Below are positions 1-62,626 of a stretch of DNA of 62,626 bases, in pieces (the first letter of the stretch is position 1; the number at the start of each line of letters is the position of its first letter). The DNA is from a virus: the IMG/VR virus record IMGVR_UViG_3300027822_000003, positions 1 through 62,626 of that record. The stretch is one strand, 5' to 3'. Below the pieces are notes generated by a model. It had not been told where the DNA came from. It ran no database searches and saw nothing but the letters and a program-made list of their open reading frames with translations. The position numbers were made by a program, and so were the translations under genes.

Positions 1-127
1 GGGGTAATCGGTGGTCTTGGTGCTACCGTCCCGATCGGGATTGCGAAGGCCATTGCAGCTTTATTTGATGCTGACGATCCAGAAGAAGAAATGATCAAGT
101 GGGCGGAGGATGCATTTGGCGGCGGTA
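1..127. repeat. Terminal overlap copy 1 (identical to 62500-62626)
   Basis: Direct comparison: ggggtaatcggtggtcttggtgctaccgtcccgatcggg...gcatttggcggcggta occurs at both ends. Confidence 0.95.
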
Positions 128-747
128 AGCTGGCAAGGTACGGATTACCCGGACTGCTTGGGATATCCTTAAAAGGCAGTCTCGCTACAAGGTTTGATGT
201 TCCAGAAACAACCCTTGACTGGTTCGGAGCTCCCGGTAATGTTGTAGCAGACATATGGGACGGCACAAAAAATCTTACAAAAGGTTTTTACCGCGAGGGA
301 TTTGAGCAGATCGCTCCGGTTGCGGCAAGAAACATTTCCCGGGGTTTGCGTGAATCAAGGGAAGGTGTTACCACAAGAAGCGGTTCGCCTGTTTTCTTTG
401 GCAAGGATCGGCTTAAGGGCGACACGTACGATATGATGTTGCGCTGGCTGTCCTTCAATCCTACAGGCATTTCAGAGAAGCGCGAAATCCAATGGAATGA
501 ATACAAAACGATGGAGCGGTATAAAGAAAAACGGAGTGAATTATATAAACGATATAAAAGATTTTATTCTAAACCCCCAGGCAAGCGAAATACAAAAGAT
601 AAAGTTGACATTTTGGCCGATATAAGGGACTTCAATATAGAAGTGAAGCGCAAAAAAATATCACGCATTGTCAGGCCAATTACAAAACGGTCTATTAAAC
701 AGAGTATGCGGTCATTAAAACCGAGTAAACGTGAAAGGGAAAGATAA
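1..747 (+). CDS. C-terminal 248 codons of the giant polyvalent virion protein (continuation of 51070-62626 across the junction)
   Basis: Position 1 is in frame with track ORF 91-747. Position 62500 has the same phase (pos mod 3 = 1). Sequence reads GGVIGGLGATVPIGIAKAIAALF then KLARYGLPGLLG. Stop TAA at 745-747. Confidence 0.85.
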   Translation, partial: GVIGGLGATVPIGIAKAIAALFDADDPEEEMIKWAEDAFGGGKLARYGLPGLLGISLKGSLATRFDVPETTLDWFGAPGNVVADIWDGTKNLTKGFYREGFEQIAPVAARNISRGLRESREGVTTRSGSPVFFGKDRLKGDTYDMMLRWLSFNPTGISEKREIQWNEYKTMERYKEKRSELYKRYKRFYSKPPGKRNTKDKVDILADIRDFNIEVKRKKISRIVRPITKRSIKQSMRSLKPSKRERER

Positions 748-12878: not shown

Positions 12879-12905
12879 GGTTTTACATCGGCTGTGTTTC
12901 TCTGG

Positions 12906-13148: not shown

Positions 13149-13169
13149 TTGATGCTCCTTGTATATACG

Positions 13170-14150: not shown

Positions 14151-14186
14151 ATTCGTTCCTTTTTGTTAGTAGGTATAATATCTAAA

Positions 14187-14909: not shown

Positions 14910-14934
14910 GCCTTTCTCCTTTTCTTAATTTGGT

Positions 14935-25683: not shown

Positions 25684-26195
25684 TTTTGAGTAATAGCCCC
25701 GATGCGGCAACATATAAAGAAAATCTTTCCGGATGGGTCTCTCGAACTGGCCGGTTTTGGGGAAAAGATGGGCATATGGCTAAATGGGATGGCGCAACTC
25801 ACACGAAATGCAGATGTGGTATTATTTTCCCAAAAAATTCTTACTGCAAAACGTGCGCTGAAAAGAGGAGGCTTGAAAAATTTAAAGCAAAACCTGTAAT
25901 GGTGTGGAATGGCAAAGATGCGTTATATTCTGATTCAGAAGATCGGTACTATGGAGAGTGGGAAGGTGTTAATAACGAAGATAGAAAAGTGTCTTTTGAA
26001 TCTATGAATTTTATTATTTGCGAGAGAACGGAATGGCGTGAGTTGAGCGATGATTTTTTTGAAGATTCTTTATGTGAAGATGTTGGAAATGATGAATTGA
26101 TTGATCTCATCCATGACTTCAACGAAAATTTAAAGGAAATCCAGACTAATTGCTGGGAGCCGGGGTTATATCGTGCTGTTTTGGAGGAGGAATAA
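25665..26195 (+). CDS. Zn-ribbon protein, tandem paralogue 2
   Basis: ATYKENLSGWVSRTGRFWGKDGHMAKWDGATHTKCRCG...YCKTCAEK. Has the same VSF(R/E)SM(K/N)F(V/I)(F/I)CE block as paralogue 1. Confidence 0.55.
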   Translation: MDNEKIILSNSPDAATYKENLSGWVSRTGRFWGKDGHMAKWDGATHTKCRCGIIFPKNSYCKTCAEKRRLEKFKAKPVMVWNGKDALYSDSEDRYYGEWEGVNNEDRKVSFESMNFIICERTEWRELSDDFFEDSLCEDVGNDELIDLIHDFNENLKEIQTNCWEPGLYRAVLEEE

Positions 26196-28976: not shown

Positions 28977-29363
28977 ATGGAAAATAAAAGAATATACCTT
29001 GCATGTCCATATTCGCATAGCTTTAAAGATGTGCGAAAAGACCGTGCGAAGTTCGCAACTCAGGTTACAGGCCGGTTAATGAAAGCCGGTTTAATTGTCT
29101 ATTCGCCCATTACGCACGGGCATGGAGTAGCCGTTGAGTGTGGGTTGCCGGGCGACTGTGTTTATTGGTCAAAAAATACAGAGTCATTTATATGTTGGTG
29201 TACGGATATTTTTGTGGTGTGCATCCCAGGATGGCAGGAGTCGGGAGGTGTGCAAGAAGAGATTTTTTTGGCTGAGAAAATGGGGAAAAATCTTGTTTAC
29301 TTGCGGCCCGGGAATTATTTTTTTGATGGTTTTTTTTCAAAAGGTATAAGTGATGAGGGATAA
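28977..29363 (+). CDS. DUF1937 / nucleoside 2-deoxyribosyltransferase-like protein
   Basis: IYLACPYSH...VYSPITHGH...DIFVVCIPGWQESGGVQEEIFLAEKMGK matches the recalled DUF1937 signature (iYlAsPYs...SPi.h...GW..S.G...Ei..A). Confidence 0.6.
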   Translation: MENKRIYLACPYSHSFKDVRKDRAKFATQVTGRLMKAGLIVYSPITHGHGVAVECGLPGDCVYWSKNTESFICWCTDIFVVCIPGWQESGGVQEEIFLAEKMGKNLVYLRPGNYFFDGFFSKGISDEG

Positions 29364-44693: not shown

Positions 44694-46646
44694 ATGAAAA
44701 TAAAAATAACAGAATTCGGTGGCATGGCTCCAGGAACAGCAGGGCATCTTTTACCGGCTAATGGGGCGCAAGACACTGAAAATGTTAATTATGATAAAGG
44801 TGATCTTCGGGCATGGAAAATGCCTTTTTTAACAGCTTCTATCATAAGTACATATGATGCAACAGCACAATATTTAGCTACTGATGCAAAACAAGTTATC
44901 TACAGTGGGCGGCTTTATTATTGCACAAGTGACACTCCTAACCCTGCGGGTGCATGGGATGATACTAAATGGACGCTAATTCCAATACAAAGTTTATTCC
45001 GATTTGAAGAAAATTCTAATTCCCATTGGATTGTTTCAGATAAAACACGTGATTATGTTAGATCTCTTAATCCTTCAGATATATATGAACGTGTCTATCT
45101 CTCCGGCGAAAATGAATTATGGGTATATTGCAATGACCTTGTATCATCTCCTTTCGACCCATGGGGAGACTATTATAAATTGGGGGTGCCTGCGCCTACC
45201 TCGGCGTGTGTGGTAGATACGTATACAGGTAGCGGTTCTGATTATAGAGCTTGGTATTATACTTATGTAAACAAATATGGTGAAGAAGGCCCTCCAAGTG
45301 ATATTGTCGAAGTTGCTGATTATCTTTCGGGGAATGTTACCCTTGATACTTTCACAGAACCTCCAACAGGAAGAGCTTTAGAAAATGGAGTAATACGTTT
45401 ATACAGAACCAACTCATCAACTGCCGGGATAGCAGAATTCCAACAAGTTAAAGATACAAACATAAATGGTTTTACATTTGCAACCGATAGCATAACAGAT
45501 GATGTCGCATCGGTTGATCTTGGCGAAGTATGCCCTTCCGAAACATGGAGTCCCCCACCTGATGGCCTTGAAGGGTTAACGCTTTTTTCGTCTAATATAA
45601 TGGTTGCATTTAAAGATAACGTTCTTTATATGAGTGCGCCTGGGTTCCCGCATGCCTGGCCAACTGAAAACCAATATCCAATAGCCTCGCTTATCAAGGG
45701 AATCAAAGTCTATGGCGCCATCATTTATGCCGTAACAGACGATTTGTATTATTTTTTTTATGGCGATGACCCTGGGAATATGAGCAAGGATAATTCAGAA
45801 ACAATGTATCCTTGTTCATCTAAAGCGAGTATGGCAACATGCAATGCAGGTGTCCTTTTCGCGGGGAATGAAGGATTAATGCTGCTCAATGCAAGCGGTT
45901 GCATTAATATAACGCAAGGTAGCGTTTATGGTGTTCAGGATTGGATTGATATGAATCCAACGACCATGAACGGGACGTTTTATAACGGAAAGTATTTTTT
46001 CTTTTATACAGATATAGATGGAAAAAGAAATGGTGCGCTGCTTGATATTGAAAGCGGGAATAAATTAACGAAACTTTCTTTATTCGCTTATGCTGGATAC
46101 CCTAGTTACGGTGATGGTGAGTTATACATGGTGTTAACCGAAAATAATCGGTACGCTGCCAATGCAAGCATGTACATCAAACAGTGGAATGCCGATCCAT
46201 ATAATTACTTGCGGCGGTTATGGAAATCCAGAAAATATTTATTACCGAATGAAATGATATTTCCTGTAGGACGTGTTTTTATAGACAGGAAATATCATCA
46301 AACAATTTTGGATACTGCTGAGGATGAAGACTATATTAAGGATTTAAACGCTCCTATTTTTGCCGCTGGAAATGTTTCCGGTGAAATCAATAGTGATGGC
46401 ATCACTGTTTTTGAAATTAATGGGGATAATTTGTATTCTCCGTCTTCCATTCAAACAAATGCTAATGCTGACTTGGAGGTATATATAGATGGTGAACTTG
46501 TCCATTCTGAGCCAATAATGAATAACAATATTTTTAAAATTTTAAAAAGTGCAAAAGGGAGTGAATTGGAAATGATAGCGTCTGGATACATACCGATGTA
46601 TACAATAGAGCTTGCAGGTTCCGCGCAAGAGATGATAACATCATAA
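44694..46646 (+). CDS. large tail structural protein (nozzle or tubular-like candidate)
   Basis: 650-aa ORF inside the tail module. No family confidently recalled. Confidence 0.3.
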   Translation: MKIKITEFGGMAPGTAGHLLPANGAQDTENVNYDKGDLRAWKMPFLTASIISTYDATAQYLATDAKQVIYSGRLYYCTSDTPNPAGAWDDTKWTLIPIQSLFRFEENSNSHWIVSDKTRDYVRSLNPSDIYERVYLSGENELWVYCNDLVSSPFDPWGDYYKLGVPAPTSACVVDTYTGSGSDYRAWYYTYVNKYGEEGPPSDIVEVADYLSGNVTLDTFTEPPTGRALENGVIRLYRTNSSTAGIAEFQQVKDTNINGFTFATDSITDDVASVDLGEVCPSETWSPPPDGLEGLTLFSSNIMVAFKDNVLYMSAPGFPHAWPTENQYPIASLIKGIKVYGAIIYAVTDDLYYFFYGDDPGNMSKDNSETMYPCSSKASMATCNAGVLFAGNEGLMLLNASGCINITQGSVYGVQDWIDMNPTTMNGTFYNGKYFFFYTDIDGKRNGALLDIESGNKLTKLSLFAYAGYPSYGDGELYMVLTENNRYAANASMYIKQWNADPYNYLRRLWKSRKYLLPNEMIFPVGRVFIDRKYHQTILDTAEDEDYIKDLNAPIFAAGNVSGEINSDGITVFEINGDNLYSPSSIQTNANADLEVYIDGELVHSEPIMNNNIFKILKSAKGSELEMIASGYIPMYTIELAGSAQEMITS

Positions 46647-51044: not shown

Positions 51045-51069
51045 AAAGCAATCATTCGGACAATAAAAT

Positions 51070-54000
51070 ATGACACAAGAAACATACAACCCAGAAGAAT
51101 GGGGCGTAGCATCTTCTAATAAACAAAGGTTACCACTTGCGGATAGAAATAATAATCCTGGCAATTTAAAGTATGCTAACCAAAAAAAGGCATCAAAAGG
51201 AGAAGGTGGATTTGCTCGTTTTGACGCTCCCGTAGAGGGATTTCACGCCTTACAAGATCAGGTTGTCCTTGATTCTTCAAGAGGCCATACGCTTGGGAGT
51301 TTTATCAAAAAATATGCACCACCTTCCGAAAACAATACTGCAAACTATCTTTCATTTATGGAAAAAGAACTCGGTGCTAATGCAGACGCACTACTTTCTA
51401 CTCTTGGTGTAAATAAAATTTCTAATGCGATTGCTAAATTCGAAGGCGGGACGAAATCAGGCAAGCAGCCAGGAAAAAGGGAAACATACAATCCAGATGA
51501 ATGGAGTGTAAAACCACAGGATGAGATGGAAGCAGGTACCTATAACCCAGATGAATGGAGTTCGGAGCCTCTTGGAAGTGTTGGGGAACCTGATCCTGAA
51601 CCTAAAAGCACATTAGGTGTTTTCACAGAGGGCATAAGCAGGCTACCAAAAAATCTGGCTAAAGAAACAATCGGGCTATTCCAAGGCGCAAAAGGGGCGA
51701 GTGTTGCGGATCAAGGATTTCTTGATAAATGGTACAATAAAGTAGAGGCTGAGAATACCGCCCTAAGCGAAGAGGCTAAAGCTGGTGGCGGCAAATTCAT
51801 ACCTGGTGTATCAGATGAAGCTGTCAGCAGTGCGCTTTCAAGTTTGCCCTATACAGGTTTGGCAATGGCCGGTGCTACTGCCGGAGCCGCGGTCACTTCT
51901 CCAATCCCTATACCTGGGGCAAGGGTAGCAGGCGGCCTGGTCGGATCGCATCTTGCTACAAATAGGGTATCAGCTTATGCCGCTATGAACCGGAACCTTA
52001 AACGCCTAAACGACTTGAATATACAAACAACTGGCGAACCCATAACGATAGAACAAGAAAATGAATTTAAAGAGGTCTATGGTTCTGAAATTGGTAAAAT
52101 AGCTGATTGGGAATCTATCCCGGAAGCAGCTGGGACAGTAATAGAATTAGTTATATATGGCATAGGCTCTAAATTACCCGCGCCTATGAGAGAGAAAGCT
52201 GCAAAATTAGTAAGCAGTCTGATCAAGAATAAAATTGCGAAAGGTGCCGCAGTTAATTCGACAAAATTGCTCGGTACTCTTATCTCTGAAACAGCGGAAG
52301 AAGTCGTAAGTGGTATTGGCGGGGGTAATGTCGAGGCCGGGATGTGGGGAGAAGAACAGCAGGAATGGGATATCCCTACAGCATTAAAAACAGCAAAAGA
52401 GGTAGCCCCAACCGTTGCTGTGACAGCAGGGCTTGTGCATGGTGCTGGCACGGTCGCAGGTAAACTTTCCAAAAAAGAAAAACCAGAAGACCAGACAAAA
52501 GATAAAAAAGTTTTTGCAGATCAACTGAATGTCTTATCGGACGGATTAAAAAAATCAGATAACAAACTTGCCGACATAAGCACAACAGTTGATCTGCATT
52601 CTAATCTTGCTGATGATCCTAAAAAACAAGTTGCCATTGATAAGGTAATTTTGGAGGCAGCGGGGCAAGGATTACAAGACGGCACGTTAACTTCGGACAA
52701 TTTGACCGAGGTAGTACAACGATTACCAGAAGATGATCCACTAAGGATAGCCTTGACGCCTCAAGTTGAGGAAAAGCCGGTACCTGTTGAACCAACTAAG
52801 CCGGAGTTAATGCCGGAGCCGGAAGTAAGCGGCACTAAAACCATTCTTGAACAAATGCAGGAAGATAAAAGCCTTCCCGAAGAAAAAAAGCTTACTGGTG
52901 CAGAACGTAGACAGCAAAGAATTAATGCTGCTGGTGAGATAAAAAGACCAGCGGAGGTTATTAAAGACCATTATCCAGCGGGCAAAACCGTGACGATGGA
53001 AGAGATAGAAGGCTTACTCAAAAAAAGAAAAATTACCAATGAAAAAGATAAGGCCAGAATTGAGGAGTTATCAAAAGGTACTCTCCAAATGCCTATTGAT
53101 ATCGACATTAAAGCTAAAACACCCCAAGATAAATATAAAATAGATAAATCTCTTAATTTTATAGATACTGCTACAGAAAAATTAGGGGGTAAGCTCGCTA
53201 TCAATATTGTTGATAAGAATGGCAGGCCAATATCACCTGCCGGGGTTCGGGAACTTTCTTTAGGGGAAGATAAGCCGACTACGCAAATAGAAGGACAGCG
53301 CAATCTCGAAGCAATAGAAAAAGAAATCACAGACCGCTGGAAAAAATCCAGAACATTACCCGCCGGGAAAAAGAAATCTCAGATAGCCAACGAGATTGCA
53401 GTTTTAAATAATGAACTTGCGACCGCTATGAAATCGGCTGATAAGGAAGAGCGCGGTGGACGTGTTGCTCCTGAGCGTGGACGTAAAGAAAAGATTTTTG
53501 AACCGGTAACATCTGAACCTAAACCTGGTGAGCCTGAAAAAGAAATCCCAAAATCCCCAGATGGTAGATACCAAATTAGTAAAATCCAAAAGCCCAACCA
53601 GTCTGGAGTTAAAGGAGTACGTTATATCTATCCTGATAGAAACATGGGTATCTTAAAGGAAGAGGCCGATCCACAGGCAGCTTTTAAAACGCTTGAAGAA
53701 GCCATTGAGGGCGCAAAAAAAGATAGAAAACTGGATGATGCGAATAAGCTTTTCAGGGATAAACAAGACGCAAAAGATAAAATAGAAAAAGAAAAAGCTG
53801 ATAAAATTGAAGCAGAAAAGCGGGATATTGACGGATTCGGTGACAATTTATCAGCCATGCGAAAAGGTAAAGTCGTAAAAGATTTAAACAAGAAAGTTAA
53901 TATCGATGGCGTTCCAACTACATTAAAAGACTTAATCCGTAAAGAAGTAGCAGCAGACAGTGCTTTAACTATACCAGGGAATATCCTTGGGAAGCCTGAT

Positions 54001-57000
54001 GAACGCGGGTCAGTAATCGGGTTTGATGTTGGGAAGACTGGTGGCAAGTATGCTCAATATCTTATTGATAGAAAAGGTAAAGGCAAAACTGAAATTTTAC
54101 CGAAACCAGTTTTAAAAAAAACACCAGAAAAGGAAGAAACCAAACCAAAAAGTAAGATAGCTTCTGAAATGTCAGCAAATGAAATGTTGGCTGAATGGGA
54201 TAAACAAGCAGCGCAGATAGAAACACCAACGCCAAAAGACAAGTTATCTGAAACAAAAGCACATCTTGCAAAAGCTGCCGATGCTTTCAAGGCTATTAAT
54301 GATATCATTGGCAAAAAAGGTGCTATTTCTAATGAGGTCGATGAACGGAATTGGTCACAGATAAAACCTCTTCTCAAAGTTGCTTTTGATGAAATTATAG
54401 CGGCTGGTAAAAGTGGGGCTGAATTTGTTGCAATTGCGATGAAAAGTCTAAGCCCTGCCGGTAAACCATACTTTGAAAAGTTTGTTAAAGAAGAAATAGG
54501 AAAGGAGGCCACCAATGTTACCGATAATGTTAGAGGGGGCAAACCACAGAAAACAACGGTTAAAGATGATACAGAACGCATTGGAATGGAAGGCCCCGCA
54601 GATGTATCAAGGGTTGAAACAAAAGAGGGAGTTGTTAAACTTCCTAAAGGAGACGGAAGCACAGGTAATGTCAGTCTTCAGGGAAGAAAAAAAGGAAAAG
54701 ATTTGGTCGAAAAATCTAAGCCAAGTCAAAAACCCGATAGCGCAGGTACAAAAAACAGAAATGTTGATAAAGAGAATATGGGAAGAGACGCTGGAAACGT
54801 TTCTGGATTTCAGCGATCAGACTATATAATCAAGCCCGGCACGTTAGAACGAGAAGGTAGCTGGAAAGATGCCGCAACAAATAACCTTGATGCTATTGAA
54901 TTGTTTAAAAAAATAAATAAAGAAAAAAGGCTTGCTACTCTAAAAGAACAAAAAATTCTTGCTAAATATGTAGGATGGGGAGCGTCCGAGTTAGCGAATA
55001 ATATGTTCCCAGGGTATGCACAACATGGAGAGCTTTTACCAGATTGGGCAGAAATTAAATGGTTGCCGAACATAAAGCGTCTTGTTGATCTTCTGTCACC
55101 TGAAGAAATAAAAACTGCTGCGAAGAGTACTCAATATGCTCATTATACAAACGAGCCAATAATTAAATCTATTTACAAAGCTCTTGCCAGAATGGGGTTT
55201 AAGGGCGGAAAGATTCTTGAGCCTGGTATGGGGATAGGTAATTTTGTAGGGTTACTTCCTGCCAAGATGCGGAAAACATCAAATTATACAGGGGTTGAGA
55301 TGGATTCCATTTCTGCCGGGATAGCAAAGCTGTTATATCCTACACAAAATATGTTGCAATCGGATTTTGTTAAACAAGCCTTCCCAAAAAACTTTTTCGA
55401 TGCTGCAATCGGCAACCCTCCATTTGGAGGAATAAAAATACTTGGGGACCCTGAATACAGGAAGCATAGGTTCTCTTTACACAATTTCTTTTTTGCCAAA
55501 ACAATTGACAGGGTAAAGCCTGGAGGGCTTTTAATTTTTGTTACCAGTCGATATACAATGGATGCAAAAACAGATAAAGCCAGGCAATATATATCTGACA
55601 AAGCAGATTTGTTGGGCGCAATAAGACTCCCTCAAACAGCTTTCCTTGAAAGTGCAGGTACAGAAGTTGTAACGGATGTTTTGTTTTTACAGAAAAGAGA
55701 ACCGGAAGAAAAAAAACAGGGTGAGGCTTGGTCGAAACAAAAAGATGTTTCTATTGGCAATGAAGTATCTTTAATCAATGAATATTTCGTTAACAATCCC
55801 GACATGGTGCTTGGTGAGCATTCCCTTGAAGGTAAAATGTATGGGAAAAATCAATATACAGTAAAACCTATTGATGGGGAAATAGAAGATCTTTTTGAAC
55901 AGGCGACAAAAAAATTGCCTGCCAATGTTTACCAAAAAGTTTCAAACAAAGTTAAAGAAAAATTTAAAAAACAATCTATAATTGAAAGAGACTTTGATCC
56001 CAAAAATAAAAAAGAAGGCGGTATCTATTTAAAAGACGGGTCCGTTATGAAGGTTGATTTCGGTTCTGGTGTTTCTGTTGATTCACTGCATAAAGGAATT
56101 ACGCCTAAAACAACTGGTTTTTTAAAGAGTTATATTAAACTAAGAGATGCTTTAAAACTTTCACATAAAGCGCAACTCGAAAATGGAGATTGGGAAAAAG
56201 CATTAATAACTCTTAATAAAGAGTATGATAACTTTGTTAAAAAACATGGTAAGATCAGATCGTTTACTACGACATTGCGTAAAAAAAAGAATGCCGAAGG
56301 AATAACGGAAAAAGTTGAATACCGTAATTATAAAAACCAATCCCTTGTTGAGATAGATTGTGAATCTTCTCTTGTTTTAACATTAGAAAACATAACGAAT
56401 AATGGAGAAATTACTAAGTCAAATGTTCTTAAAGGTAGGACAGTACAGAAGCCAACTACTCCTATAATTAAATCTGTCCCTGATGCTTTCGCCGTTTCGT
56501 TAGACATGGTAGGAACCCTTGACATTGATCATATATCAAGTTTAATTAAAAAATCAAACAAGGAAGTTGTAGAAACTCTTGGCAATTTAATTTATAAGGC
56601 TCCTGATGGGTCTGGTTATATAATGTCAGATGAATACTTATCCGGCAACGTTGTAAAAAAACTTCAAGAAGCAAAGGCAGCCGCAGTTTTGGATTCTGCT
56701 TTTGAACGCAATGTTGTAGCCCTAAAAAAAACACAACCAGAACCATTAAGCCCAAAACAAATTACAATAACGCCAGGAGCCACATGGATACCTATTGAAT
56801 ATTATAGCCAATTTGCTACAGAAATTCTTGAACTGCCAAATACAGAAGTCACATATCAGCCAATTGATAATTCGTGGAAAGTGTTACCCAAAGAAGATAC
56901 GAGACCAAGCTGGCGCAGGCGTGGAGATAGACAAGGTTATTCTCCACAAGAGTTAAGGGATGCTGCAAATGAATGGGGAACAGAACACCGTGGGCCTAAT

Positions 57001-60000
57001 GAAATTTTTGATTCAATTTTGAATAACAGAAGCATCAGAATCACATACACTATTGATATAGAAGGCGGTGGGAAAAAAACTGTTTTTGATGCTGAAGCTA
57101 CTGCCACGGCAAATGAAATTGTTAAAAAGATTAGGAACCGGTTTAATTCATGGGCATGGGAAAATGTTGATAGGGCAAGCGATTTAATAGATATTTATAA
57201 TTCAAAAATAAATGTTATCAAAGGCAGGAAATTCGATGGTTCACACTTAACCCTTCCAGGGATGAGTAATCATTTTATCCCGTATGATCATCAAAAACGT
57301 GTTATTTGGCGGATACTACAGTCTGGGAATACCTATATGGCACATTCTGTAGGAGCAGGTAAAACCTTTATTATGATCTCTGCTGGTATGGAAATGCGCC
57401 GGTTAGGAATGATTAATAAGCCTCTTTATGTTGTCCCTAAACATATGCTTGGACAATTCGCGCAGGAGTTTCAGGAGCTTTATCCTATGGCGAATATTCT
57501 TGTAGCTGATGAAAAGAATTTTTATACAGAAAATAGAAAACGATTTGTAGCGAAAGCGACTTTAAACGATCCCGATGCCGTTATTTTAACTCATTCAAGT
57601 TTTGGTATGCTTGGAGTTAAAGAAGAAACATTAGCACCTGTTAGAGATGAGTTTTTAGAGCAAATGAGATTTTCATTATCTGAAATGGAAGATGATGATG
57701 AACCAAAAATGAAAATTAAACGGATGGAAAAAAGGATTGAGCAGGCAGAGCAACGGTTTAACTCCTTACTTTCAGATGGTGACAATGTTGTTTCTTTTGA
57801 AGAACTTGGTGCAGATTTTGTATTCGTGGATGAAGCTCATGAATTTAGAAAATTAGATTTCGCTACAAATAGGCAAATAAAGGGAATAGATTCTCAGGGT
57901 TCAAAAAAGGCTATTGACCTTTATATAAAAACACTTTGGTTGGAAAAGCAAAACCGTGGGCGATCACATGCTTTTGCGTCTGGGACACCTATTGTAAATA
58001 CTTTGGGGGAGTTGTACACTCTCCAAAGATTTTTTGATCAAGGGGAAATGGAAGAAGATGGAATAAACCATTTTGATGCATGGGCGAATATGTTCGGAGA
58101 GCCTGTATCTGATTATGAAATGACCGCTTCTGGAAAATATGAACAGGTAGAAAGGTTTTCAAAATTTGTTAATCTCCCTGAGTTAATGTCTCGCATTAGA
58201 ATGTTTACAGATGTGTTAACAAGTTCCCAATTAGGGACAAGGGTTAATCGACCTAAAATCAAGAATGGAGCGGCACAGATAGTTCTTGCACCAGCGAATG
58301 AAAGGCTTAAAGCATATCAAAAAGATAATTTACAACCAAGAATAGAAGCAAGCCGAGCTTGGAAGCCATCTCAGGGTCAACCTGGGAACCCCGATCCTAT
58401 TATTAACATAATAACTGATGGGAAATTAGCTTCTATTGATATGCGATTTGTTGACCAAGGGGCCAAAAATGATCCTGAAAGCAAATTAAACATATGGATA
58501 GATGGAATTATTAAAACATATAAAGAAACAAAAGATTTTGTTTATGCTACAGAGTATGGGACATCCCAAAAATCAAAAATAAAAGGCGGGTGCCAAATAT
58601 GTTTTTATAATAATGGGTTTGGGAGCGGTGTAATTAAGCGTAGAGGGTTTGATTCTAAAGCATTTGTAATGCAAAGGCTTAAAGACGCAGGTATTTCCTC
58701 AAGAAATGTTGGTTGGATTGATGATTATAAAACTGCCCCAGCAAAGCAAGCGTTCTTAAAACTCGTACGCAATGGGAAAAAGAGAATATTACTTGGTTCC
58801 GCAAAGAAGATGGGAACAGGTATTAATGCTCAAAACAGGTTAACGCATTTGCATTATTTGGATGCGCCTTGGTATCCTGCTGACGTTGAACAGCCAGAAG
58901 GCAGAATAATCCGGCAAGGGAACCAAAACACAGAAGTATCTTTATACAGGTACGCTACAAAGGGAAGTTATGATGCAACTTTGTGGCAAATGGTTGCAAG
59001 GAAAGCCAGGTTTATAGACCAAGTATGGGTTGGTGATAAGAATGTAAGATCAATTGAGGATATATCAGAAGCTAGTCAATATGAAATGGCTGCGGCGTTG
59101 GCCTCTGGAGATAAAAGAGTAGTTGAACTTGTTGGGATAAAAGCCGATATTGAAAGATTCCACCTTCTTAAAACTGCACACCAGGATAATCAAACAAAAT
59201 TAGCATCCGATAAGCGTAATCTTGAAAAAAGTATTTCTATAACTCAAGGATGGCTTGAAGATTTTGGAACCATTGAAGATTCCTTGCCTGGTTTTATTGG
59301 TGCAGAGATTGACGGGAGAGTTGGGAATGAAACATTTACGGAACGGAAAAAGTTTGGGGCCGCACTAAAAAAACAAATCAAACAAGTTTTTGTTGAGAAG
59401 AATGAAAGCCTTTCTATGCTTGGCTCTATTAGTGGAATAGATATTAATGTTGAAACTATAGAGGGCGTAACGAGACAGATAACAGCCCCAAAGTTAGATA
59501 TTGAAATTTCAAAAAATGATTTTCGCCGTACAATTGATAATACCTTTACATCACAAGAAGGATGGGACGCTACCGATGCCGTTGGGTTAACAAAAAAAAT
59601 TACCAATACAATCAATGATCTTTCCTCTGTTAAATCAGAATCAGAAGAAAAGCTTGATCAAGACAAAAAGAAAATTGAAAGGATAAACAAAAAGCTTGGG
59701 GCCCCCTTTGAGCATGCAAAAGAATTTACAGAAAAAATTGCCGAAGCGGCATCCCTTGAAAAAGAATTATCCGAAGAAGAACCTGTTATCCCAGAAACTA
59801 AAGATATCCAATTTGAAACAGCCGGAACAAAAGGCCGGCCACTAACAAACGAGGATATAAACAAAGCCTTCGGCAAAATGAAAAATGTCACTACAGGCCA
59901 GGATAAGGCAAATAATTTCTGGTTTCAGTTTAAAGGCTTCCCGAAATTTACGATCCTTGAGGTGGATTCAATTAATGATCGGGTAGGTCTTACAGATAAA

Positions 60001-62626
60001 AAATCAAAAAAACAGCCAAAAATAGGAGCCTTTTTACGTGAATCGAGACAGATTTGGTTCAAGACCGGAGGTGTGGGCGTAAAAGCCGATATAGGAACGC
60101 TGCATCACGAGAACTGGCATTTGTTTAAAAAAATGGGTGTTATATCAAGAAAAGATTTAAGAGCCGTTAAGAGAGCAATCAGGCACAGTGGTAACTTAGG
60201 AATTATCACAGAAGAAACAGAAGCCTCATGGATAGCAGATGCCGCAAAGAGCAGGGAATATGCCAGAGATTCCGCTATAGGTCGCATCTTGCAAAAGATT
60301 GGTGACTTCTTTGACGCTATGGTTAATATAGTTGCGACTACCAGTCGAGGCGTTATGCGTAAGATGGAAAGCGGAAAAATGGTTACGCAAGATGCTGATG
60401 TTGGGCAGATGTCCTTATCGCCTGCTATGGCTTTTGAAACCCAAGACGTAGACCTATCAGAAGAAATAGAAGAGGAAGACACAGCCTTTCAGCAAGCAAT
60501 TGATTTAATTTCAGCACATTGGGGCAAGCAAGGCAAATATACCAATGAGCGTAAAAAGCTGACTTTCCTTGAGCATCATCTCGGAACCACAATGTATAAC
60601 GCCAAGCGTATTGGCGGGTGGTATAACAGATTTTACAATGTAATTCGGAATCTGGGTCAGTATAAATTCGAGCAGCAAAACCGGCTTAGAGGTGAGGGTG
60701 ATGCTTCTCTATTCGCACCGTTGGAAACATTTTCCAAAAAAAACAAAACTGAATATCGTAAATTAAGAAAATACCTGGTCAACAAGGATATTAATGCTGA
60801 AGGTTACAAGGTTAGGCCGACATTAGAAACAGGCGCATTATCTGAAGGTGCATATGATATAATCAACGAGAAAGGCACGGTCATTGATACCCAGACAACT
60901 GAAGATGAAGCCTTTAATGAAGTATGGGAGATGGAGGCCGATGCAACCGACTTTACGGATGCAGGGAAAGAGGCATTACTTAATTTCCGGAAAATGACCC
61001 GCAACCTGTACAAACATTATGCCAAGGGCATGAATGAGATTATTGAAATGGCGCGGTTATCAGGTCAGCCTCCGCCGAAAGTAACAACCATAGTAGGTGG
61101 CAAGCCGGTTAAGATAAGTTTAAAACAAGCCATTCAAGATATGGGCGATAGGCAGGGATATTACTTTCCAAGAATTCGGGAATCAGGAGAATGGAAGATT
61201 GAAGGCCGGAAAGAAGGCATGCCAAATCAAATGGATTTCTTTGCATCAAAAGCACTATCAAAAGGATACGCTCAAAAATTAAGACGCCAAGGATACAAGG
61301 TTGAATCAACTCATTCAGGGGCTTTCTCAGAAGACCTGTTCCAAACGCTGGCTCCACTTCTTGCTCAAGAACAGGTAGTCAATAGCGTAATAGACAGAGT
61401 GTCTAAAAACGAAGATTTTGACGCTGTGTATGCTGATATGTTTGCCAAGCAATATGCTGAGATGTTAAAATCTCATGGCTCCCGGGCAAGGATGATCGGC
61501 CGGTCAGATGCTATCGGGATTGATGTAAAACGTGGGTATGAAACTGATCCAGTCAAGGCTATTGCGATTGCCACGGAAGCCGCTGCTGGCGGCTATGCTA
61601 AACAACAGATTGCGATTAACGCAATGAAAGCAATCACGGGTCGAGATTTATCCTGGGAAGAATACCAGAAGGACAATCCCGGTAAAAAACATGAAGATTA
61701 TTTAAAGGACATCCGTAAACGCGGCGCCGATGCTTCCAGGCAACAAACTGAATACAAGGAAGCGACTGAAACGCTACAGGATATTTTAAAGAACCAGGAA
61801 CTTGCAGACAGGATTGTTGGAACGCTTAAAGGTATGGCTGTTGTTTGGTATTTAGGAGCCAGGGTGAGTTCCGCTGCTGTGAATTTAACAAATATGGTTA
61901 TGGGTGTACCTGCTACGATGGTTGGAGAATTATCAGACAAGGCCAGTAAGATTTCATTCAGACAAGCTTTCAAGCATATAGGCAGTGCTGGAATAGCATA
62001 CGGTAAATTCAGAACTGGAACATTAAAAGATATTGGTCAGTCTGATTTATTCCAAGAAATAGAAAAGCGGGGCTGGGACGCTCCGCAGTTCAATATGGAA
62101 GCGTTAAATGCCCTCCAGAACAAGTACGGTAAGGCCTGGGGCCAAGTTATAGACAAATCTATGTGGATGTTCGGGGTAACGGAAAAGATCAACAGAGCAA
62201 CCACTATAGGCGCAAATTACATGGCCTTATGTAAAAAGAATAATGTCCGGCTACGAGATACTTCCGGCAAACTTCATGAAACATTGTTGCTTAAAGCCAG
62301 GAATGCTTCTGATGTAGCCCACGGTGTATATGAAAAAGGGAACCGACCGTACCATATGAGGGGTGAACATATTGGAGCAAGAGTTTTACAGATGACTTAC
62401 GTGTTCCAAACATTCACCCACAATTATCTGCAAGAAATGATAAGGCTTGGGCTTGTTAAAAAGCAATATGGCGCAGCGGCATACATGGCCTTATCTGGGG
62501 GGGTAATCGGTGGTCTTGGTGCTACCGTCCCGATCGGGATTGCGAAGGCCATTGCAGCTTTATTTGATGCTGACGATCCAGAAGAAGAAATGATCAAGTG
62601 GGCGGAGGATGCATTTGGCGGCGGTA
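51070..62626 (+). CDS. giant polyvalent virion protein, about 4,058 aa in total (runs off the window and continues at 1-747)
   Basis: A TAA at 51064-51066 is followed by ATG 51070. My hand translation of frame 1 met no stop to 62626. The track reports no + ORF here, as expected for an ORF that lacks a stop inside the window. Domains: NNPGNLKY...YAPPSENNT (51150-51330); TM/Gly-Ala segments (about 51840-52460); MTase motif I EPGMGIGNF (about 55218-55244) and motif IV NPPF (55414-55425); helicase GAGKT (57352-57366), DEAH (57829-57840) and QPEGRIIRQGN (about 58890-58925); HHENWH (60103-60120). Confidence 0.85.
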   Translation, partial: MTQETYNPEEWGVASSNKQRLPLADRNNNPGNLKYANQKKASKGEGGFARFDAPVEGFHALQDQVVLDSSRGHTLGSFIKKYAPPSENNTANYLSFMEKELGANADALLSTLGVNKISNAIAKFEGGTKSGKQPGKRETYNPDEWSVKPQDEMEAGTYNPDEWSSEPLGSVGEPDPEPKSTLGVFTEGISRLPKNLAKETIGLFQGAKGASVADQGFLDKWYNKVEAENTALSEEAKAGGGKFIPGVSDEAVSSALSSLPYTGLAMAGATAGAAVTSPIPIPGARVAGGLVGSHLATNRVSAYAAMNRNLKRLNDLNIQTTGEPITIEQENEFKEVYGSEIGKIADWESIPEAAGTVIELVIYGIGSKLPAPMREKAAKLVSSLIKNKIAKGAAVNSTKLLGTLISETAEEVVSGIGGGNVEAGMWGEEQQEWDIPTALKTAKEVAPTVAVTAGLVHGAGTVAGKLSKKEKPEDQTKDKKVFADQLNVLSDGLKKSDNKLADISTTVDLHSNLADDPKKQVAIDKVILEAAGQGLQDGTLTSDNLTEVVQRLPEDDPLRIALTPQVEEKPVPVEPTKPELMPEPEVSGTKTILEQMQEDKSLPEEKKLTGAERRQQRINAAGEIKRPAEVIKDHYPAGKTVTMEEIEGLLKKRKITNEKDKARIEELSKGTLQMPIDIDIKAKTPQDKYKIDKSLNFIDTATEKLGGKLAINIVDKNGRPISPAGVRELSLGEDKPTTQIEGQRNLEAIEKEITDRWKKSRTLPAGKKKSQIANEIAVLNNELATAMKSADKEERGGRVAPERGRKEKIFEPVTSEPKPGEPEKEIPKSPDGRYQISKIQKPNQSGVKGVRYIYPDRNMGILKEEADPQAAFKTLEEAIEGAKKDRKLDDANKLFRDKQDAKDKIEKEKADKIEAEKRDIDGFGDNLSAMRKGKVVKDLNKKVNIDGVPTTLKDLIRKEVAADSALTIPGNILGKPDERGSVIGFDVGKTGGKYAQYLIDRKGKGKTEILPKPVLKKTPEKEETKPKSKIASEMSANEMLAEWDKQAAQIETPTPKDKLSETKAHLAKAADAFKAINDIIGKKGAISNEVDERNWSQIKPLLKVAFDEIIAAGKSGAEFVAIAMKSLSPAGKPYFEKFVKEEIGKEATNVTDNVRGGKPQKTTVKDDTERIGMEGPADVSRVETKEGVVKLPKGDGSTGNVSLQGRKKGKDLVEKSKPSQKPDSAGTKNRNVDKENMGRDAGNVSGFQRSDYIIKPGTLEREGSWKDAATNNLDAIELFKKINKEKRLATLKEQKILAKYVGWGASELANNMFPGYAQHGELLPDWAEIKWLPNIKRLVDLLSPEEIKTAAKSTQYAHYTNEPIIKSIYKALARMGFKGGKILEPGMGIGNFVGLLPAKMRKTSNYTGVEMDSISAGIAKLLYPTQNMLQSDFVKQAFPKNFFDAAIGNPPFGGIKILGDPEYRKHRFSLHNFFFAKTIDRVKPGGLLIFVTSRYTMDAKTDKARQYISDKADLLGAIRLPQTAFLESAGTEVVTDVLFLQKREPEEKKQGEAWSKQKDVSIGNEVSLINEYFVNNPDMVLGEHSLEGKMYGKNQYTVKPIDGEIEDLFEQATKKLPANVYQKVSNKVKEKFKKQSIIERDFDPKNKKEGGIYLKDGSVMKVDFGSGVSVDSLHKGITPKTTGFLKSYIKLRDALKLSHKAQLENGDWEKALITLNKEYDNFVKKHGKIRSFTTTLRKKKNAEGITEKVEYRNYKNQSLVEIDCESSLVLTLENITNNGEITKSNVLKGRTVQKPTTPIIKSVPDAFAVSLDMVGTLDIDHISSLIKKSNKEVVETLGNLIYKAPDGSGYIMSDEYLSGNVVKKLQEAKAAAVLDSAFERNVVALKKTQPEPLSPKQITITPGATWIPIEYYSQFATEILELPNTEVTYQPIDNSWKVLPKEDTRPSWRRRGDRQGYSPQELRDAANEWGTEHRGPNEIFDSILNNRSIRITYTIDIEGGGKKTVFDAEATATANEIVKKIRNRFNSWAWENVDRASDLIDIYNSKINVIKGRKFDGSHLTLPGMSNHFIPYDHQKRVIWRILQSGNTYMAHSVGAGKTFIMISAGMEMRRLGMINKPLYVVPKHMLGQFAQEFQELYPMANILVADEKNFYTENRKRFVAKATLNDPDAVILTHSSFGMLGVKEETLAPVRDEFLEQMRFSLSEMEDDDEPKMKIKRMEKRIEQAEQRFNSLLSDGDNVVSFEELGADFVFVDEAHEFRKLDFATNRQIKGIDSQGSKKAIDLYIKTLWLEKQNRGRSHAFASGTPIVNTLGELYTLQRFFDQGEMEEDGINHFDAWANMFGEPVSDYEMTASGKYEQVERFSKFVNLPELMSRIRMFTDVLTSSQLGTRVNRPKIKNGAAQIVLAPANERLKAYQKDNLQPRIEASRAWKPSQGQPGNPDPIINIITDGKLASIDMRFVDQGAKNDPESKLNIWIDGIIKTYKETKDFVYATEYGTSQKSKIKGGCQICFYNNGFGSGVIKRRGFDSKAFVMQRLKDAGISSRNVGWIDDYKTAPAKQAFLKLVRNGKKRILLGSAKKMGTGINAQNRLTHLHYLDAPWYPADVEQPEGRIIRQGNQNTEVSLYRYATKGSYDATLWQMVARKARFIDQVWVGDKNVRSIEDISEASQYEMAAALASGDKRVVELVGIKADIERFHLLKTAHQDNQTKLASDKRNLEKSISITQGWLEDFGTIEDSLPGFIGAEIDGRVGNETFTERKKFGAALKKQIKQVFVEKNESLSMLGSISGIDINVETIEGVTRQITAPKLDIEISKNDFRRTIDNTFTSQEGWDATDAVGLTKKITNTINDLSSVKSESEEKLDQDKKKIERINKKLGAPFEHAKEFTEKIAEAASLEKELSEEEPVIPETKDIQFETAGTKGRPLTNEDINKAFGKMKNVTTGQDKANNFWFQFKGFPKFTILEVDSINDRVGLTDKKSKKQPKIGAFLRESRQIWFKTGGVGVKADIGTLHHENWHLFKKMGVISRKDLRAVKRAIRHSGNLGIITEETEASWIADAAKSREYARDSAIGRILQKIGDFFDAMVNIVATTSRGVMRKMESGKMVTQDADVGQMSLSPAMAFETQDVDLSEEIEEEDTAFQQAIDLISAHWGKQGKYTNERKKLTFLEHHLGTTMYNAKRIGGWYNRFYNVIRNLGQYKFEQQNRLRGEGDASLFAPLETFSKKNKTEYRKLRKYLVNKDINAEGYKVRPTLETGALSEGAYDIINEKGTVIDTQTTEDEAFNEVWEMEADATDFTDAGKEALLNFRKMTRNLYKHYAKGMNEIIEMARLSGQPPPKVTTIVGGKPVKISLKQAIQDMGDRQGYYFPRIRESGEWKIEGRKEGMPNQMDFFASKALSKGYAQKLRRQGYKVESTHSGAFSEDLFQTLAPLLAQEQVVNSVIDRVSKNEDFDAVYADMFAKQYAEMLKSHGSRARMIGRSDAIGIDVKRGYETDPVKAIAIATEAAAGGYAKQQIAINAMKAITGRDLSWEEYQKDNPGKKHEDYLKDIRKRGADASRQQTEYKEATETLQDILKNQELADRIVGTLKGMAVVWYLGARVSSAAVNLTNMVMGVPATMVGELSDKASKISFRQAFKHIGSAGIAYGKFRTGTLKDIGQSDLFQEIEKRGWDAPQFNMEALNALQNKYGKAWGQVIDKSMWMFGVTEKINRATTIGANYMALCKKNNVRLRDTSGKLHETLLLKARNASDVAHGVYEKGNRPYHMRGEHIGARVLQMTYVFQTFTHNYLQEMIRLGLVKKQYGAAAYMALSGGVIGGLGATVPIGIAKAIAALFDADDPEEEMIKWAEDAFGGG
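62500..62626. repeat. Terminal overlap copy 2 (identical to 1-127)
   Basis: Same 127-nt string as the window start. The odd length fits a de Bruijn k-mer overlap from circular assembly. Confidence 0.95.

What the first reader, a model, noticed from the sequence alone, without database searches (positions are those of the whole stretch)
51070..62626. Untracked ORF of about 4,058 codons wrapping the contig junction: a polyvalent protein in the ejection-protein slot
Seen: the supplied track has no + strand ORF after 51044. Yet the frame with pos mod 3 = 1 opens at ATG 51070 (preceded by TAA at 51064-51066). My hand translation of that frame met no stop to the window end. The last 127 nt equal the first 127 nt and the phase is preserved, so the ORF continues into 1-747 (the track's 91-747, MIKWAEDAFGGG..., is its tail). 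That is 3,810 plus 248 codons.

In order, the ORF contains:
- an NNPGN...YAPPSENNT domain;
- Gly/Ala-rich hydrophobic stretches;
- long K/E-rich linkers;
- an NPPF methyltransferase;
- a GAGKT/DEAH/QxxGRxxRxGN helicase;
- an HExxH motif;
- a glycine-zipper-like C-terminus.

Known: phage P1 DarB is a very large virion protein with methyltransferase and helicase motifs that protects injected DNA from type I restriction. Multi-domain 'polyvalent proteins' of phages and conjugative elements have been described. Podovirus internal-core proteins (T7 gp14-16) and N4 vRNAP are ejected with the DNA.

Inference: this gene follows the tail fibres and two inner-virion-like proteins, so it is probably packaged and injected. 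It would combine channel-forming or muralytic functions with DNA-modifying and counter-defence functions in one polypeptide. At this size, and with this domain order in a 62.5-kb genome (about 19% of coding capacity), it deserves direct study.
Basis: partly seen in the sequence, partly recalled or inferred. Interest (0 to 1): 0.9.

Follow-up and report, generated by a model that had tools for sequence, protein, structure and literature searches.

The report
Giant DarB-like polyvalent phage protein
The window is a circular 62.5-kb podophage genome, and one real 4,058-codon gene in it fuses a cell-wall hydrolase, a DNA methylase-helicase, a probable protease and a conserved tail module; such giant phage proteins are already known, but a close relative carries different cargo domains in the same scaffold.

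Summary
ATG 51070 opens a frame with no stop to the window end. The last 127 nt equal the first 127 nt in phase, and the ORF ends at 745-747. That makes 4,058 codons, 19.5% of a 62,499-bp circle. An independent contig (L004) is contiguous across the junction.

The protein has six modules:
- an Enc34-type peptidoglycan hydrolase with its catalytic residues conserved;
- a Gly/Ala-rich hydrophobic region;
- a K/E-rich linker with no homologues found;
- a DarB-like N6-adenine methyltransferase plus SNF2 helicase with all motifs intact;
- a module with an invariant HExxH...E signature;
- a ~930-aa PLxRFG ("tail-700") C-terminal module.

This is a known kind. Giant DarB-like polyvalent proteins of Bcep22-, PBC5- and Lastavirus-type podophages fill about 19-22% of 60-kb genomes and have been detected in virions.

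Three points are new here. This exact domain combination was not found in the sets searched. A close relative keeps the N- and C-terminal scaffold but carries RadC and ART domains where this phage has the methylase-helicase. The PLxRFG module always sits at the extreme C-terminus and has no solved structural match.

Packaging, ejection and anti-restriction activity are inferred, not shown.

The parts
51070..62626 (+). 5' part of the giant ORF (codons 1-3810 end at 62499; 62500-62626 duplicates bases 1-127)
   Evidence: ATG 51070 after TAA 51064-51066, no in-frame stop to the window end
1..747 (+). 3' part of the giant ORF (codons 3811-4058 plus the stop at 745-747)
   Evidence: phase is preserved across the 127-nt overlap; L004 is contiguous across the junction
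62500..62626 (.). 127-nt terminal duplicate of bases 1-127 (circular-assembly overlap); the true genome is 62,499 bp
51133..51462 (+). Module A, aa 22-131: Enc34-type (PHA02564) peptidoglycan hydrolase domain; E125, Y93 and Y82 align with the Enc34 catalytic residues Glu131, Tyr95 and Trp79
   Evidence: PMC8943055
51082..51558 (+). Three TYNP(D/E)EW motifs (aa 5-11, 139-145, 157-163) that bracket module A; conserved in relative P0148
51475..52899 (+). Module B, aa 136-610: Gly/Ala-rich region with moderately hydrophobic stretches (aa 263-281, 445-463); shared with P0148, P0157 and P0159
52900..54114 (+). Module C, aa 611-1015: K/E-rich linker. Homologues were found only in P0148 (to aa 838) and P0158 (aa 481-808); the word-index search of the 5.8-billion-protein collection found none
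54115..59781 (+). Module D, aa 1016-2904: DarB-like core (N-terminal extension, N6-adenine MTase, middle region, SNF2/SF2 helicase)
55141..55707 (+). MTase catalytic region, aa 1358-1546 (motif I EPGMGIGNF at 1384, motif IV NPPF at 1449; Pfam Eco57I at 1429-1514)
57280..59115 (+). Helicase region, aa 2071-2682 (GAGKT 2095, DEAH 2254, QPEGRIIRQGN 2608; Pfam SNF2-rel_dom, ResIII, Helicase_C)
53484..59816 (+). Stretch with no DNA counterpart in close relative L004, where a shorter segment carrying a RadC-JAB domain sits instead (cargo slot 1)
59788..60435 (+). Module E, aa 2907-3122: H3013-E3014-xx-H3017 and E3049 are invariant in 29 homologous segments; probable zincin-like metallopeptidase
   Evidence: no Pfam, PDB or GenBank-phage hit
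60436..62499 (+). Module F, first part (aa 3123-3810) of the ~930-aa PLxRFG / 'tail-700' C-terminal module; the NF032893 match starts at aa 3364 (nt 61159)
1..744 (+). Module F, second part (aa 3811-4058). The strongest hydrophobic Gly-rich segment of the protein (aa 3802-3834) spans nt 62473-62499 plus 1-72
44694..46646 (+). Upstream context: homologue of Bcep22 gp67 virion-associated protein (PHROG 511 'internal virion protein')

Best explanation
The ORF is a real gene for a 4,058-aa 'polyvalent' virion protein of an uncultivated ~62.5-kb podophage.

It is built as a scaffold plus cargo. The scaffold is an N-terminal Enc34-type peptidoglycan hydrolase, a Gly/Ala-rich region, an HExxH module and a ~930-aa PLxRFG C-terminal module. 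The cargo is a ~1,900-aa DarB-like N6-adenine methyltransferase fused to an SNF2-type helicase.

The most likely mechanism is as follows, and every step of it is inferred.
1. The protein is made late and incorporated into the capsid, probably through the conserved C-terminal module or an N-terminal signal.
2. At infection it leaves the virion with or ahead of the DNA.
3. The hydrolase domain opens the peptidoglycan locally.
4. The HExxH peptidase may cut the polypeptide into working pieces.
5. The methylase-helicase acts in cis on the entering genome to blunt type I restriction, as P1 DarB does.

The sequence evidence shows the ORF itself, the domain identities, intact catalytic motifs, homology to P1 DarB and to virion-borne Bcep22-group proteins, the position in the late virion module, and cargo exchange between close relatives.
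For: ORF and junction.

Hydrolase: the profile hits Enc34 endolysin 7q47 (E 1e-20) and 9vvp Gp29 (E 1e-32). The AF2 model (pLDDT 84.6) matches 7q47 by Foldseek with prob 1.00. The catalytic Glu, Tyr and aromatic residues are invariant. Enc34 activity is experimental (PMC8943055).

MTase-helicase: Pfam hits; PHROG 10089; 45-47% identity over ~1,600 aa to Bcep22, DC1, JC1 and Ralstonia phage proteins; three collinear HSPs to P1 DarB (E 2e-20, 3e-19, 6e-12); all motifs intact.

HExxH module: HExxH and a downstream Glu are invariant in 29 homologues.

C-terminal module: NF032893 scores 121 bits against a cutoff of 100. It is 97% identical in P0148. In the 139 of the 150 listed representative proteins that match it, the 70 listed all leave 0-128 aa after it, most under 50. 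A stand-alone 1,064-aa version exists.

Cargo swap: L004 is collinear at 74-92% nt identity but has RadC and ART-PolyVal in place of the MTase-helicase.

Virion association of homologues: JC1 gp69 gave 51 unique peptides in CsCl-purified virions (PMC9144972). P1 DarB is a head protein with an N-terminal capsid-targeting signal (PMC9024508).

Context: TerL, portal, MCP, a tail-fibre-like gene and a gp67 homologue lie upstream; a beta-helix protein lies downstream.
Against: - There is no direct evidence that this protein is in virions or is ejected.
- The Bcep22-group proteins shown to be virion-borne share only the MTase-helicase core with it. Their N-terminus is SLT and their C-terminus is LPD3/LPD38, with no NF032893 hit. 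Packaging determinants may therefore differ.
- No homologues of P1 DarA, Hdf, DdrA/B or Ulx were seen in the neighbouring ORFs that were scanned. That scan was not exhaustive.
- Identity to P1 DarB is only 25-30%. DarB's own biochemical mechanism was not examined here; only its protection against EcoB/EcoK is cited (PMC6630229; PMC9024508).
- The peptidase assignment rests on a motif only. There was no Pfam or PDB hit, and hhalign to the N4 gp50 MPTase region was uninformative.
- The C-terminal module has no PDB fold match and no profile similarity to T7 gp16.
Confidence: 0.7

Rival explanations
1. The protein is packaged and ejected, but the SNF2 helicase-methylase does not act against restriction. 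It might work as a DNA translocase that helps pull the genome into the cell or jump-starts replication or transcription. Alternatively the methylase might mark phage DNA against other defences such as BREX, DISARM or MADS-type systems.
For: The helicase C-lobe and the MTase give partial matches to defence-system components DrmD, BrxH, DpdE and MAD2. The same enzyme folds are therefore used in several DNA-tracking systems. No Dar accessory genes were found. In the close relative the slot holds unrelated effectors, RadC and ART, so the slot is not dedicated to anti-restriction.
Against: The only experimentally characterised homologue, P1 DarB, protects against type I restriction (PMC9024508; PMC6630229). 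The matches to defence proteins fall far below the family cut-offs.
Confidence: 0.15
2. The protein is not a virion component. It is a late-expressed cytoplasmic enzyme: the methylase-helicase modifies progeny DNA, and the hydrolase domain contributes to lysis.
For: No separate endolysin was recognised among the ORFs scanned here (not exhaustive). The Enc34 domain family was first characterised as an endolysin (PMC8943055).
Against: The same hydrolase domain sits in tape-measure, tail-injection and internal-virion proteins and in a 1,295-aa chain ('Gp29') of PDB entry 9vvp. Homologous giant proteins are found in virions. The gene is embedded among virion genes. A 450-kDa endolysin has no precedent, to my knowledge.
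Confidence: 0.1
3. The giant ORF is an assembly chimera or junction artefact, not one gene.
For: No second contig covers the whole architecture. The joint between aa ~838 and ~1016 lies in a low-complexity linker and is not independently confirmed. The 127-nt overlap looks like an assembler k-mer length (my inference).
Against: There are no stops in 4,058 codons against ~285 expected. L004 spans the junction in one HSP. P0153 (3,636 aa) is collinear from the core through the HExxH region into the C-terminal module. L003 is collinear from aa 1016 to 2851.
Confidence: 0.03

Closest known systems
Bcep22-group (Lessievirus) giant DarB-like virion proteins: Bcep22 gp75 (4,602 aa), DC1 gp67, BcepIL02 gp70, JC1 gp69; also the homologues in Ralstonia phages
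   Same: The MTase + SNF2 helicase core is 45-47% identical over ~1,650 aa. [quoted passage not shown] Both genes are the largest in a ~60-kb podophage, about 20% of the genome, and lie late in the virion module after a gp67-type protein. JC1 gp69 is MS-confirmed in virions.
   Different: The N-terminal hydrolase is Enc34-type here and SLT in Bcep22. The C-terminus is PLxRFG here and LPD3 + LPD38 there, with no NF032893 hit. There is no detectable similarity outside the core. TerL and portal belong to a different lineage. GC is 38% here against ~65%.
PLxRFG giant proteins of Lastavirus (LASTA, SJM3, SopranoGao, ZX1), Erwinia PEp14/Pavtok, Serratia Parlo, Pseudomonas Itty13, and PBC5-like Atu_ph08, POI1126 and PBC5
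   Same: The C-terminal ~500 aa is 22-26% identical. Both hit the NF032893 model. Both combine MTase and helicase with a hydrolase and a peptidase (PMC6630229). The gene takes about 19% of a ~62-kb genome (PMC9505181).
   Different: Sequence identity is low. The HExxH module here has no tblastn match in any of the 50,697 GenBank phage records. The N-terminal hydrolase family is different.
Phage P1 DarB (2,255 aa)
   Same: Collinear MTase -> helicase homology (25-30% identity; E 2e-20, 3e-19, 6e-12). DarB is a packaged head protein believed to enter the cell, and it protects DNA from EcoB/EcoK.
   Different: DarB has no hydrolase, no HExxH module and no PLxRFG module. P1 is a myovirus and needs DarA, Hdf, DdrB and Ulx for packaging; none of these was recognised here.
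Polyvalent proteins of phages and conjugative elements (Iyer et al. 2017, PMC5512222)
   Same: Unrelated enzymatic domains (SWI2/SNF2 ATPase, adenine MTase, zincin-like MPTase, lysozyme/transglycosylase) are fused in one polypeptide that is delivered at invasion. Domain shuffling between relatives is typical.
   Different: None of the curated LPD Pfam families hits this protein. The Enc34-type hydrolase and the PLxRFG module did not come up in the passages I read (keyword searches only).
Metagenomic relative P0148 / L004 (JGI 3300001750, 2,883 aa)
   Same: The N-terminal 838 aa are 70% identical, the HExxH module 77%, and the C-terminal 936 aa 97%. The flanking genes are collinear.
   Different: It lacks the MTase-helicase entirely. 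It carries a RadC-JAB domain before the HExxH module and ART-PolyVal after it.

Membership tests
P1 DarB-like antirestriction proteins | N6-adenine DNA methyltransferase domain with SAM-binding motif I and catalytic (D/N)PP(Y/F) motif IV | tested here: met
   Pfam Eco57I E 2e-8, above the cutoff; EPGMGIGNF at 1384 and NPPF at 1449
P1 DarB-like antirestriction proteins | SF2/SNF2 helicase domain C-terminal to the MTase in the same polypeptide | tested here: met
   SNF2-rel_dom and ResIII score above their cutoffs; Helicase_C scores below its cutoff; GAGKT, DEAH and QxxGRxxRxGN are present
P1 DarB-like antirestriction proteins | Detectable sequence homology to P1 DarB itself | tested here: met
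   Three collinear BLASTP HSPs, E 2e-20, 3e-19 and 6e-12, 25-30% identity
P1 DarB-like antirestriction proteins | Packaged in the capsid and delivered with the DNA | not testable with these tools
   Indirect only: JC1 gp69 was found in virions by MS; P1 DarB is a head protein
P1 DarB-like antirestriction proteins | Protects incoming DNA in cis from type I restriction | not testable with these tools
   Needs plating assays on R-M+ and R-M- hosts
PHROG 10089 / Bcep22 gp75-type giant virion protein | Full-length similarity to the ~4,600-aa family profile | tested here: inconclusive
   Profile positions 1476-3213 match strongly (E 1e-230 and 1e-280) and positions 4463-4621 match weakly (E 4e-6). 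The N-terminal ~1,150 aa do not match. Pairwise, only aa 1155-2904 align with gp75
PHROG 10089 / Bcep22 gp75-type giant virion protein | SLT lytic transglycosylase at the N-terminus and LPD3/LPD38 at the C-terminus | tested here: not met
   Bcep22 gp75 has SLT, LPD3 and LPD38. The window protein has none of them; it has an Enc34-type hydrolase and PLxRFG instead
PLxRFG domain-containing proteins (NCBIfam NF032893 'tail-700') | Score above the curated cut-off over nearly the full model, at the C-terminal end of a long protein | tested here: met
   121.2 bits against a cutoff of 100; model positions 2-667 of 681; aa 3364-4054 of 4,058
Enc34-type endolysin catalytic domain (PHA02564) | Sequence and fold similarity to 7Q47, with the catalytic Glu131, Tyr95 and aromatic 79 conserved | tested here: met
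   Profile E 1e-20; Foldseek prob 1.00, TM 0.60-0.64; E125, Y93 and Y82 align, with E125 and Y93 invariant in 18 sequences
Zincin-like metallopeptidase of polyvalent proteins | HExxH on one helix and a third ligand Glu on a following helix, within the zincin fold | tested here: inconclusive
   The motif and E3049 are invariant. There is no Pfam or PDB hit, and hhalign to the N4 gp50 MPTase region gave Prob 2.6%. The fold was not modelled
T7 gp16-type internal virion protein D (ejectosome) | Homology of the C-terminal module to gp16 | tested here: not met
   hhalign Prob 0.2-0.3%. No PDB fold hit. The only link is predicted-fold similarity to marine podophage proteins annotated 'internal virion protein D', and profile comparison with the one such protein tested, P12053L_42, gave Prob 0.3%
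Polyvalent proteins (Iyer et al. 2017) | Several unrelated effector domains in one polypeptide, encoded with phage late/packaging genes | tested here: met
   Four enzymatic modules of unrelated folds sit in the virion gene block

The most novel reading that the evidence does not exclude
The ~930-aa PLxRFG C-terminal module, perhaps together with the N-terminal hydrolase and hydrophobic region, may be a general virion-incorporation and ejection chassis of podophages. Arbitrary effector cassettes could be plugged into it at two defined slots, one before and one after the HExxH peptidase module. Near-identical phages would then swap their injected weapons (MTase-helicase versus RadC + ART) by recombination inside one gene. 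If so, this is a natural, programmable protein-injection platform built on a fold with no solved counterpart.
Probability: 0.35. Interest if true: 0.6.

Novelty: new member of a known kind. Interest (0 to 1): 0.35.

Why it matters
Giant polyvalent virion proteins take about a fifth of the genome in several podophage groups, yet none has been dissected biochemically.

This example adds a clean natural experiment. Two phages with 74-92% nt identity around the locus share the scaffold (97% identity in the C-terminal module) but carry entirely different cargo. That comparison delimits the cargo slots and points to the PLxRFG module as the conserved delivery or assembly element.

It also gives the N-terminal domain a firm assignment, to an experimentally validated hydrolase family. 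The result is useful for annotation and for designing capsid-targeted cargo delivery. It does not change the current understanding of these proteins.

Tried and rejected
- Megablast of the gene against GenBank phages found no match.
- A back-translated pattern scan of IMG/VR with the core alone found nothing.
- A word-index search with the N-terminal 1,200 aa found homologues only for aa ~1-130.
- Homology of the C-terminal module to T7 gp16 is rejected: hhalign Prob 0.2-0.3%.
- Sequence-level relation to Celeribacter phage P12053L gp42 was tested, because Foldseek/BFVD had flagged it and proteins named 'internal virion protein D'. hhalign gave Prob 0.3%, so that similarity remains a weak lead based on predicted folds of long helical proteins.
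- PDB fold search with the C-terminal model gave nothing at E < 1. PDB sequence search also gave nothing.
- The HExxH module gave no Pfam, PDB or GenBank-phage hit, and comparison with the N4 gp50 metallopeptidase region was uninformative.
- Gill et al. 2011 (PMC3187461) and Piya et al. 2017 (PMC6011833) are not held in the library. Their content is cited only through papers that quote them.
- P0223, one apparently short PLxRFG protein, turned out to be 5'-truncated. Only P0204 could be shown to be a complete stand-alone module.
Full report
OBSERVATION

The ORF is real.
- ATG 51070 follows an in-frame TAA at 51064-51066, and there is no stop to the window end.
- Bases 1-127 equal 62500-62626, so the contig is a circular assembly of 62,499 bp.
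- Position 62500 (and so position 1) is the first base of a codon. The frame runs on to a stop at 745-747, giving 4,058 codons, 12,177 nt or 19.5% of the genome.
- The other five frames of the same stretch hold 90-421 stops. About 285 are expected from composition, so P(no stop) is about 7e-129.
- The ORF listing does not list it because it runs off the end.
- The junction is independently supported. A contig from another JGI sample (L004) aligns in one 2,815-nt HSP at 91.6% identity to window 60436 -> 747.

ANATOMY

Six modules can be delimited.

(A) aa 22-131, peptidoglycan hydrolase.
- PHROG matches are to 'endolysin / tape measure / tail injection transglycosylase' families.
- An 18-sequence profile hits PDB 7q47, the catalytic domain of the phage Enc34 endolysin (E 1e-20), and the N-terminus of a 1,295-aa chain ('Gp29') of entry 9vvp (E 1e-32).
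- The AlphaFold model (pLDDT 84.6) matches 7q47 by Foldseek with probability 1.00 and TM 0.60-0.64.
- Enc34's catalytic Glu131 and the important Tyr95 and Trp79 (PMC8943055) align with E125, Y93 and Y82. E125 and Y93 are invariant in the alignment.
- Enc34's domain is experimentally muralytic.

(B) aa 136-610, Gly/Ala-rich region.
- It has moderately hydrophobic stretches at 263-281 and 445-463.
- It is shared with a few metagenomic proteins.

(C) aa 611-1015, K/E-rich linker.
- Homologues are few: P0148 matches to aa 838 and P0158 matches aa 481-808. The word-index search of 5.8 billion proteins found none.

(D) aa 1016-2904, the DarB-like core.
- Pfam hits are Eco57I-type MTase, SNF2-rel_dom, ResIII and Helicase_C.
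- PHROG 10089 'DarB-like antirestriction' matches at E 1e-230 and 1e-280.
- The core is 45-47% identical over ~1,600 aa to the giant proteins of Burkholderia phages Bcep22, DC1, BcepIL02 and JC1 and of many Ralstonia phages.
- Three collinear HSPs match P1 DarB itself.
- Motif I (EPGMGIGNF), motif IV (NPPF), Walker A (GAGKT), DEAH and motif VI (QPEGRIIRQGN) are all intact.

(E) aa 2907-3122, HExxH module.
- H3013-E3014-xx-H3017 and E3049 are invariant in 29 homologous segments.
- That is the pattern expected of the zincin-like peptidases common in polyvalent proteins (PMC5512222).
- The fold could not be confirmed.
- No GenBank phage has a detectable homologue.

(F) aa 3123-4058, C-terminal module.
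- It scores above the cutoff for NCBIfam NF032893 'tail-700 / PLxRFG' (121 bits against 100; aa 3364-4054).
- It contains the one strongly hydrophobic, Gly-rich segment of the protein, aa 3802-3834.
- It is mostly alpha-helical in a moderate-confidence model (pLDDT 72.8, pTM 0.62).

RELATIVES AND WHAT THEY SHOW

An exhaustive HMMER search with aa 2901-3520 found 359 representative proteins.
- Of the 150 listed, 139 match module F. In the 70 of these that were tabulated, 0-128 aa remain after it, in most under 50. Host proteins range from 1,064 to 4,755 aa in that table.
- At least one complete stand-alone version exists: P0204, which is preceded by in-frame stops.
- Among the 150, 59 also have the HExxH module, about 20 have the MTase-helicase, and only one (P0148) has the Enc34-type hydrolase. 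None has the full A-F arrangement.

P0148 is the key comparison.
- Its contig L004 is collinear with the window at 74-92% nt identity.
- Its 2,883-aa gene shares aa 1-838 (70%), the HExxH module (77%) and module F (97%).
- It has no MTase-helicase. Instead a RadC-JAB domain sits before the HExxH module and an ART-PolyVal ADP-ribosyltransferase sits after it.

Conversely, the closest relative of the core is P0028 (75-78% identical, truncated by its contig end). Its N-terminal ~940 aa are unrelated. The gene is therefore a conserved scaffold with exchangeable cargo.

Bcep22 gp75 shares only the core. It has SLT at the N-terminus and LPD3 + LPD38 at the C-terminus, and no NF032893 hit.

The phage backbone is also not Lessievirus-like.
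- TerL is closest to EBPR podovirus 1 (56%).
- The portal is closest to uncultured spring-water phages, an Alcaligenes phage, and roseophage/pelagiphage podoviruses.
- One virion gene upstream (44694-46646) is homologous to Bcep22 gp67.

MECHANISM

What is shown:
- a single intact gene in the late virion block;
- four enzyme-like modules with conserved catalytic residues;
- homology to a protein that protects injected DNA (P1 DarB);
- homology to giant proteins detected in virions. JC1 gp69 gave 51 unique peptides and was the second-highest score after the capsid protein (PMC9144972).

What is inferred:
- The protein is packaged. P1 DarB uses an N-terminal 30-residue capsid-targeting signal (PMC9024508). 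Here the invariably C-terminal, highly conserved module F is the better candidate.
- It leaves the capsid at infection.
- The hydrolase digests peptidoglycan locally.
- The HExxH module may process the chain, as Iyer et al. proposed for polyvalent proteins.
- The MTase-helicase protects the entering DNA from type I restriction.

I put about 0.7 on this overall picture. The main alternative (0.15) keeps packaging and ejection but assigns the helicase-methylase another job, such as DNA translocation, replication jump-start, or evasion of other defences. A purely cytoplasmic role (0.1) and an assembly artefact (0.03) are unlikely.

The 'channel-forming' idea is untested.
- Module F shows no profile similarity to T7 gp16 and no PDB fold match.
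- Foldseek against predicted viral structures does link it to ~1,400-1,500-aa proteins of marine podophages, some of them annotated 'internal virion protein D'.
- Profile comparison with the one such protein tested, P12053L_42, gave Prob 0.3%. I treat this link as a lead only.

COMPARISON WITH WHAT IS KNOWN, AND NOVELTY

The class is well documented.
- Bcep22, BcepIL02, DC1 and JC1 carry 4,500-4,650-aa 'DarB-like' or 'multidomain SLT/helicase/methylase' proteins.
- Serratia phage Parlo has a 3,764-aa homologue.
- Lastaviruses have a 495-kDa 'PLxRFG' protein taking 19% of a 62-kb genome (PMC9505181).
- The general 'polyvalent protein' concept dates from 2017 (PMC5512222).

The window's gene is a new member with a domain combination not seen before: an Enc34-type hydrolase, a Bcep22-like core and a PLxRFG tail.

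The additions from this work are the firm assignment of the N-terminal domain, the scaffold/cargo dissection from the L004 comparison, the strictly C-terminal position of the PLxRFG module, and the lack of any solved structural relative for it.

VERDICT

Novelty is modest and interest is about 0.35.

Noticed in passing
window 1-127 and 62500-62626: Exact 127-nt terminal overlap, so the contig is a circular (or circularly permuted) genome of 62,499 bp. The length looks like an assembler k-mer rather than a biological terminal repeat (my inference).
   Followed up: partly
window 51082-51102, 51484-51504, 51538-51558 (aa 5-11, 139-145, 157-163): Three copies of the motif TYNP(D/E)EW bracket the hydrolase domain. 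They are conserved in the relative P0148. They are candidate processing or docking sites; none was seen elsewhere in the protein or in the other proteins retrieved.
   Followed up: partly
L004 5845-7767 and 8379-9032: The close relative has two cargo slots in the same scaffold: RadC-JAB before the HExxH module and ART-PolyVal after it. The window fills slot 1 with the MTase-helicase and has nothing in slot 2.
   Followed up: yes
window 25132-25683 and 25665-26195: Two adjacent, overlapping paralogous ORFs both match PHROG 11053, of unknown function.
   Followed up: no
window 28977-29363: ORF resembling nucleoside 2-deoxyribosyltransferase (PHROG 355, E 2e-10). It could bear on nucleotide or DNA-base metabolism of the phage.
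   Followed up: no
window 42756-44690 and 5770-7320: A 644-aa protein with LVIVD repeats lies upstream of the giant gene, and a 516-aa right-handed beta-helix (tailspike-like) protein lies downstream. The virion genes therefore continue on both sides of the giant gene across the contig junction.
   Followed up: partly
window 51045-51069: No recognisable Shine-Dalgarno sequence ahead of ATG 51070 (aaagcaatcattcggacaataaaatATG). No terminator-like hairpin was found within 1.7 kb of the stop at 747.
   Followed up: no
window 9000-15000: Negative GC skew and minus-strand ORFs mark a divergently transcribed block, probably early or regulatory genes. No tRNA genes were found in the genome.
   Followed up: no
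window 31936-35465: TerL is closest to EBPR podovirus 1 and a Chlorobiaceae phage. The portal is closest to uncultured spring-water phages, Alcaligenes phage QDWS535, CRP-901/902 and HTVC027P/023P. The virion backbone is unrelated to the Burkholderia phages that share the DarB-like core, so the genome is a mosaic.
   Followed up: partly
PDB 9vvp chain L: A solved 1,295-aa protein, 'Gp29', carries the same Enc34-type hydrolase at its N-terminus (E 1e-32). No paper mentioning the entry was found in the library, so its virion role could not be checked.
   Followed up: partly
L008 25954-26412 and L001 3502-3933: Both Celeribacter phage P12053L and Bcep22 encode a GNAT/acyl-CoA N-acetyltransferase a few genes upstream of their giant or large late protein. 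This may be a recurring neighbour.
   Followed up: no
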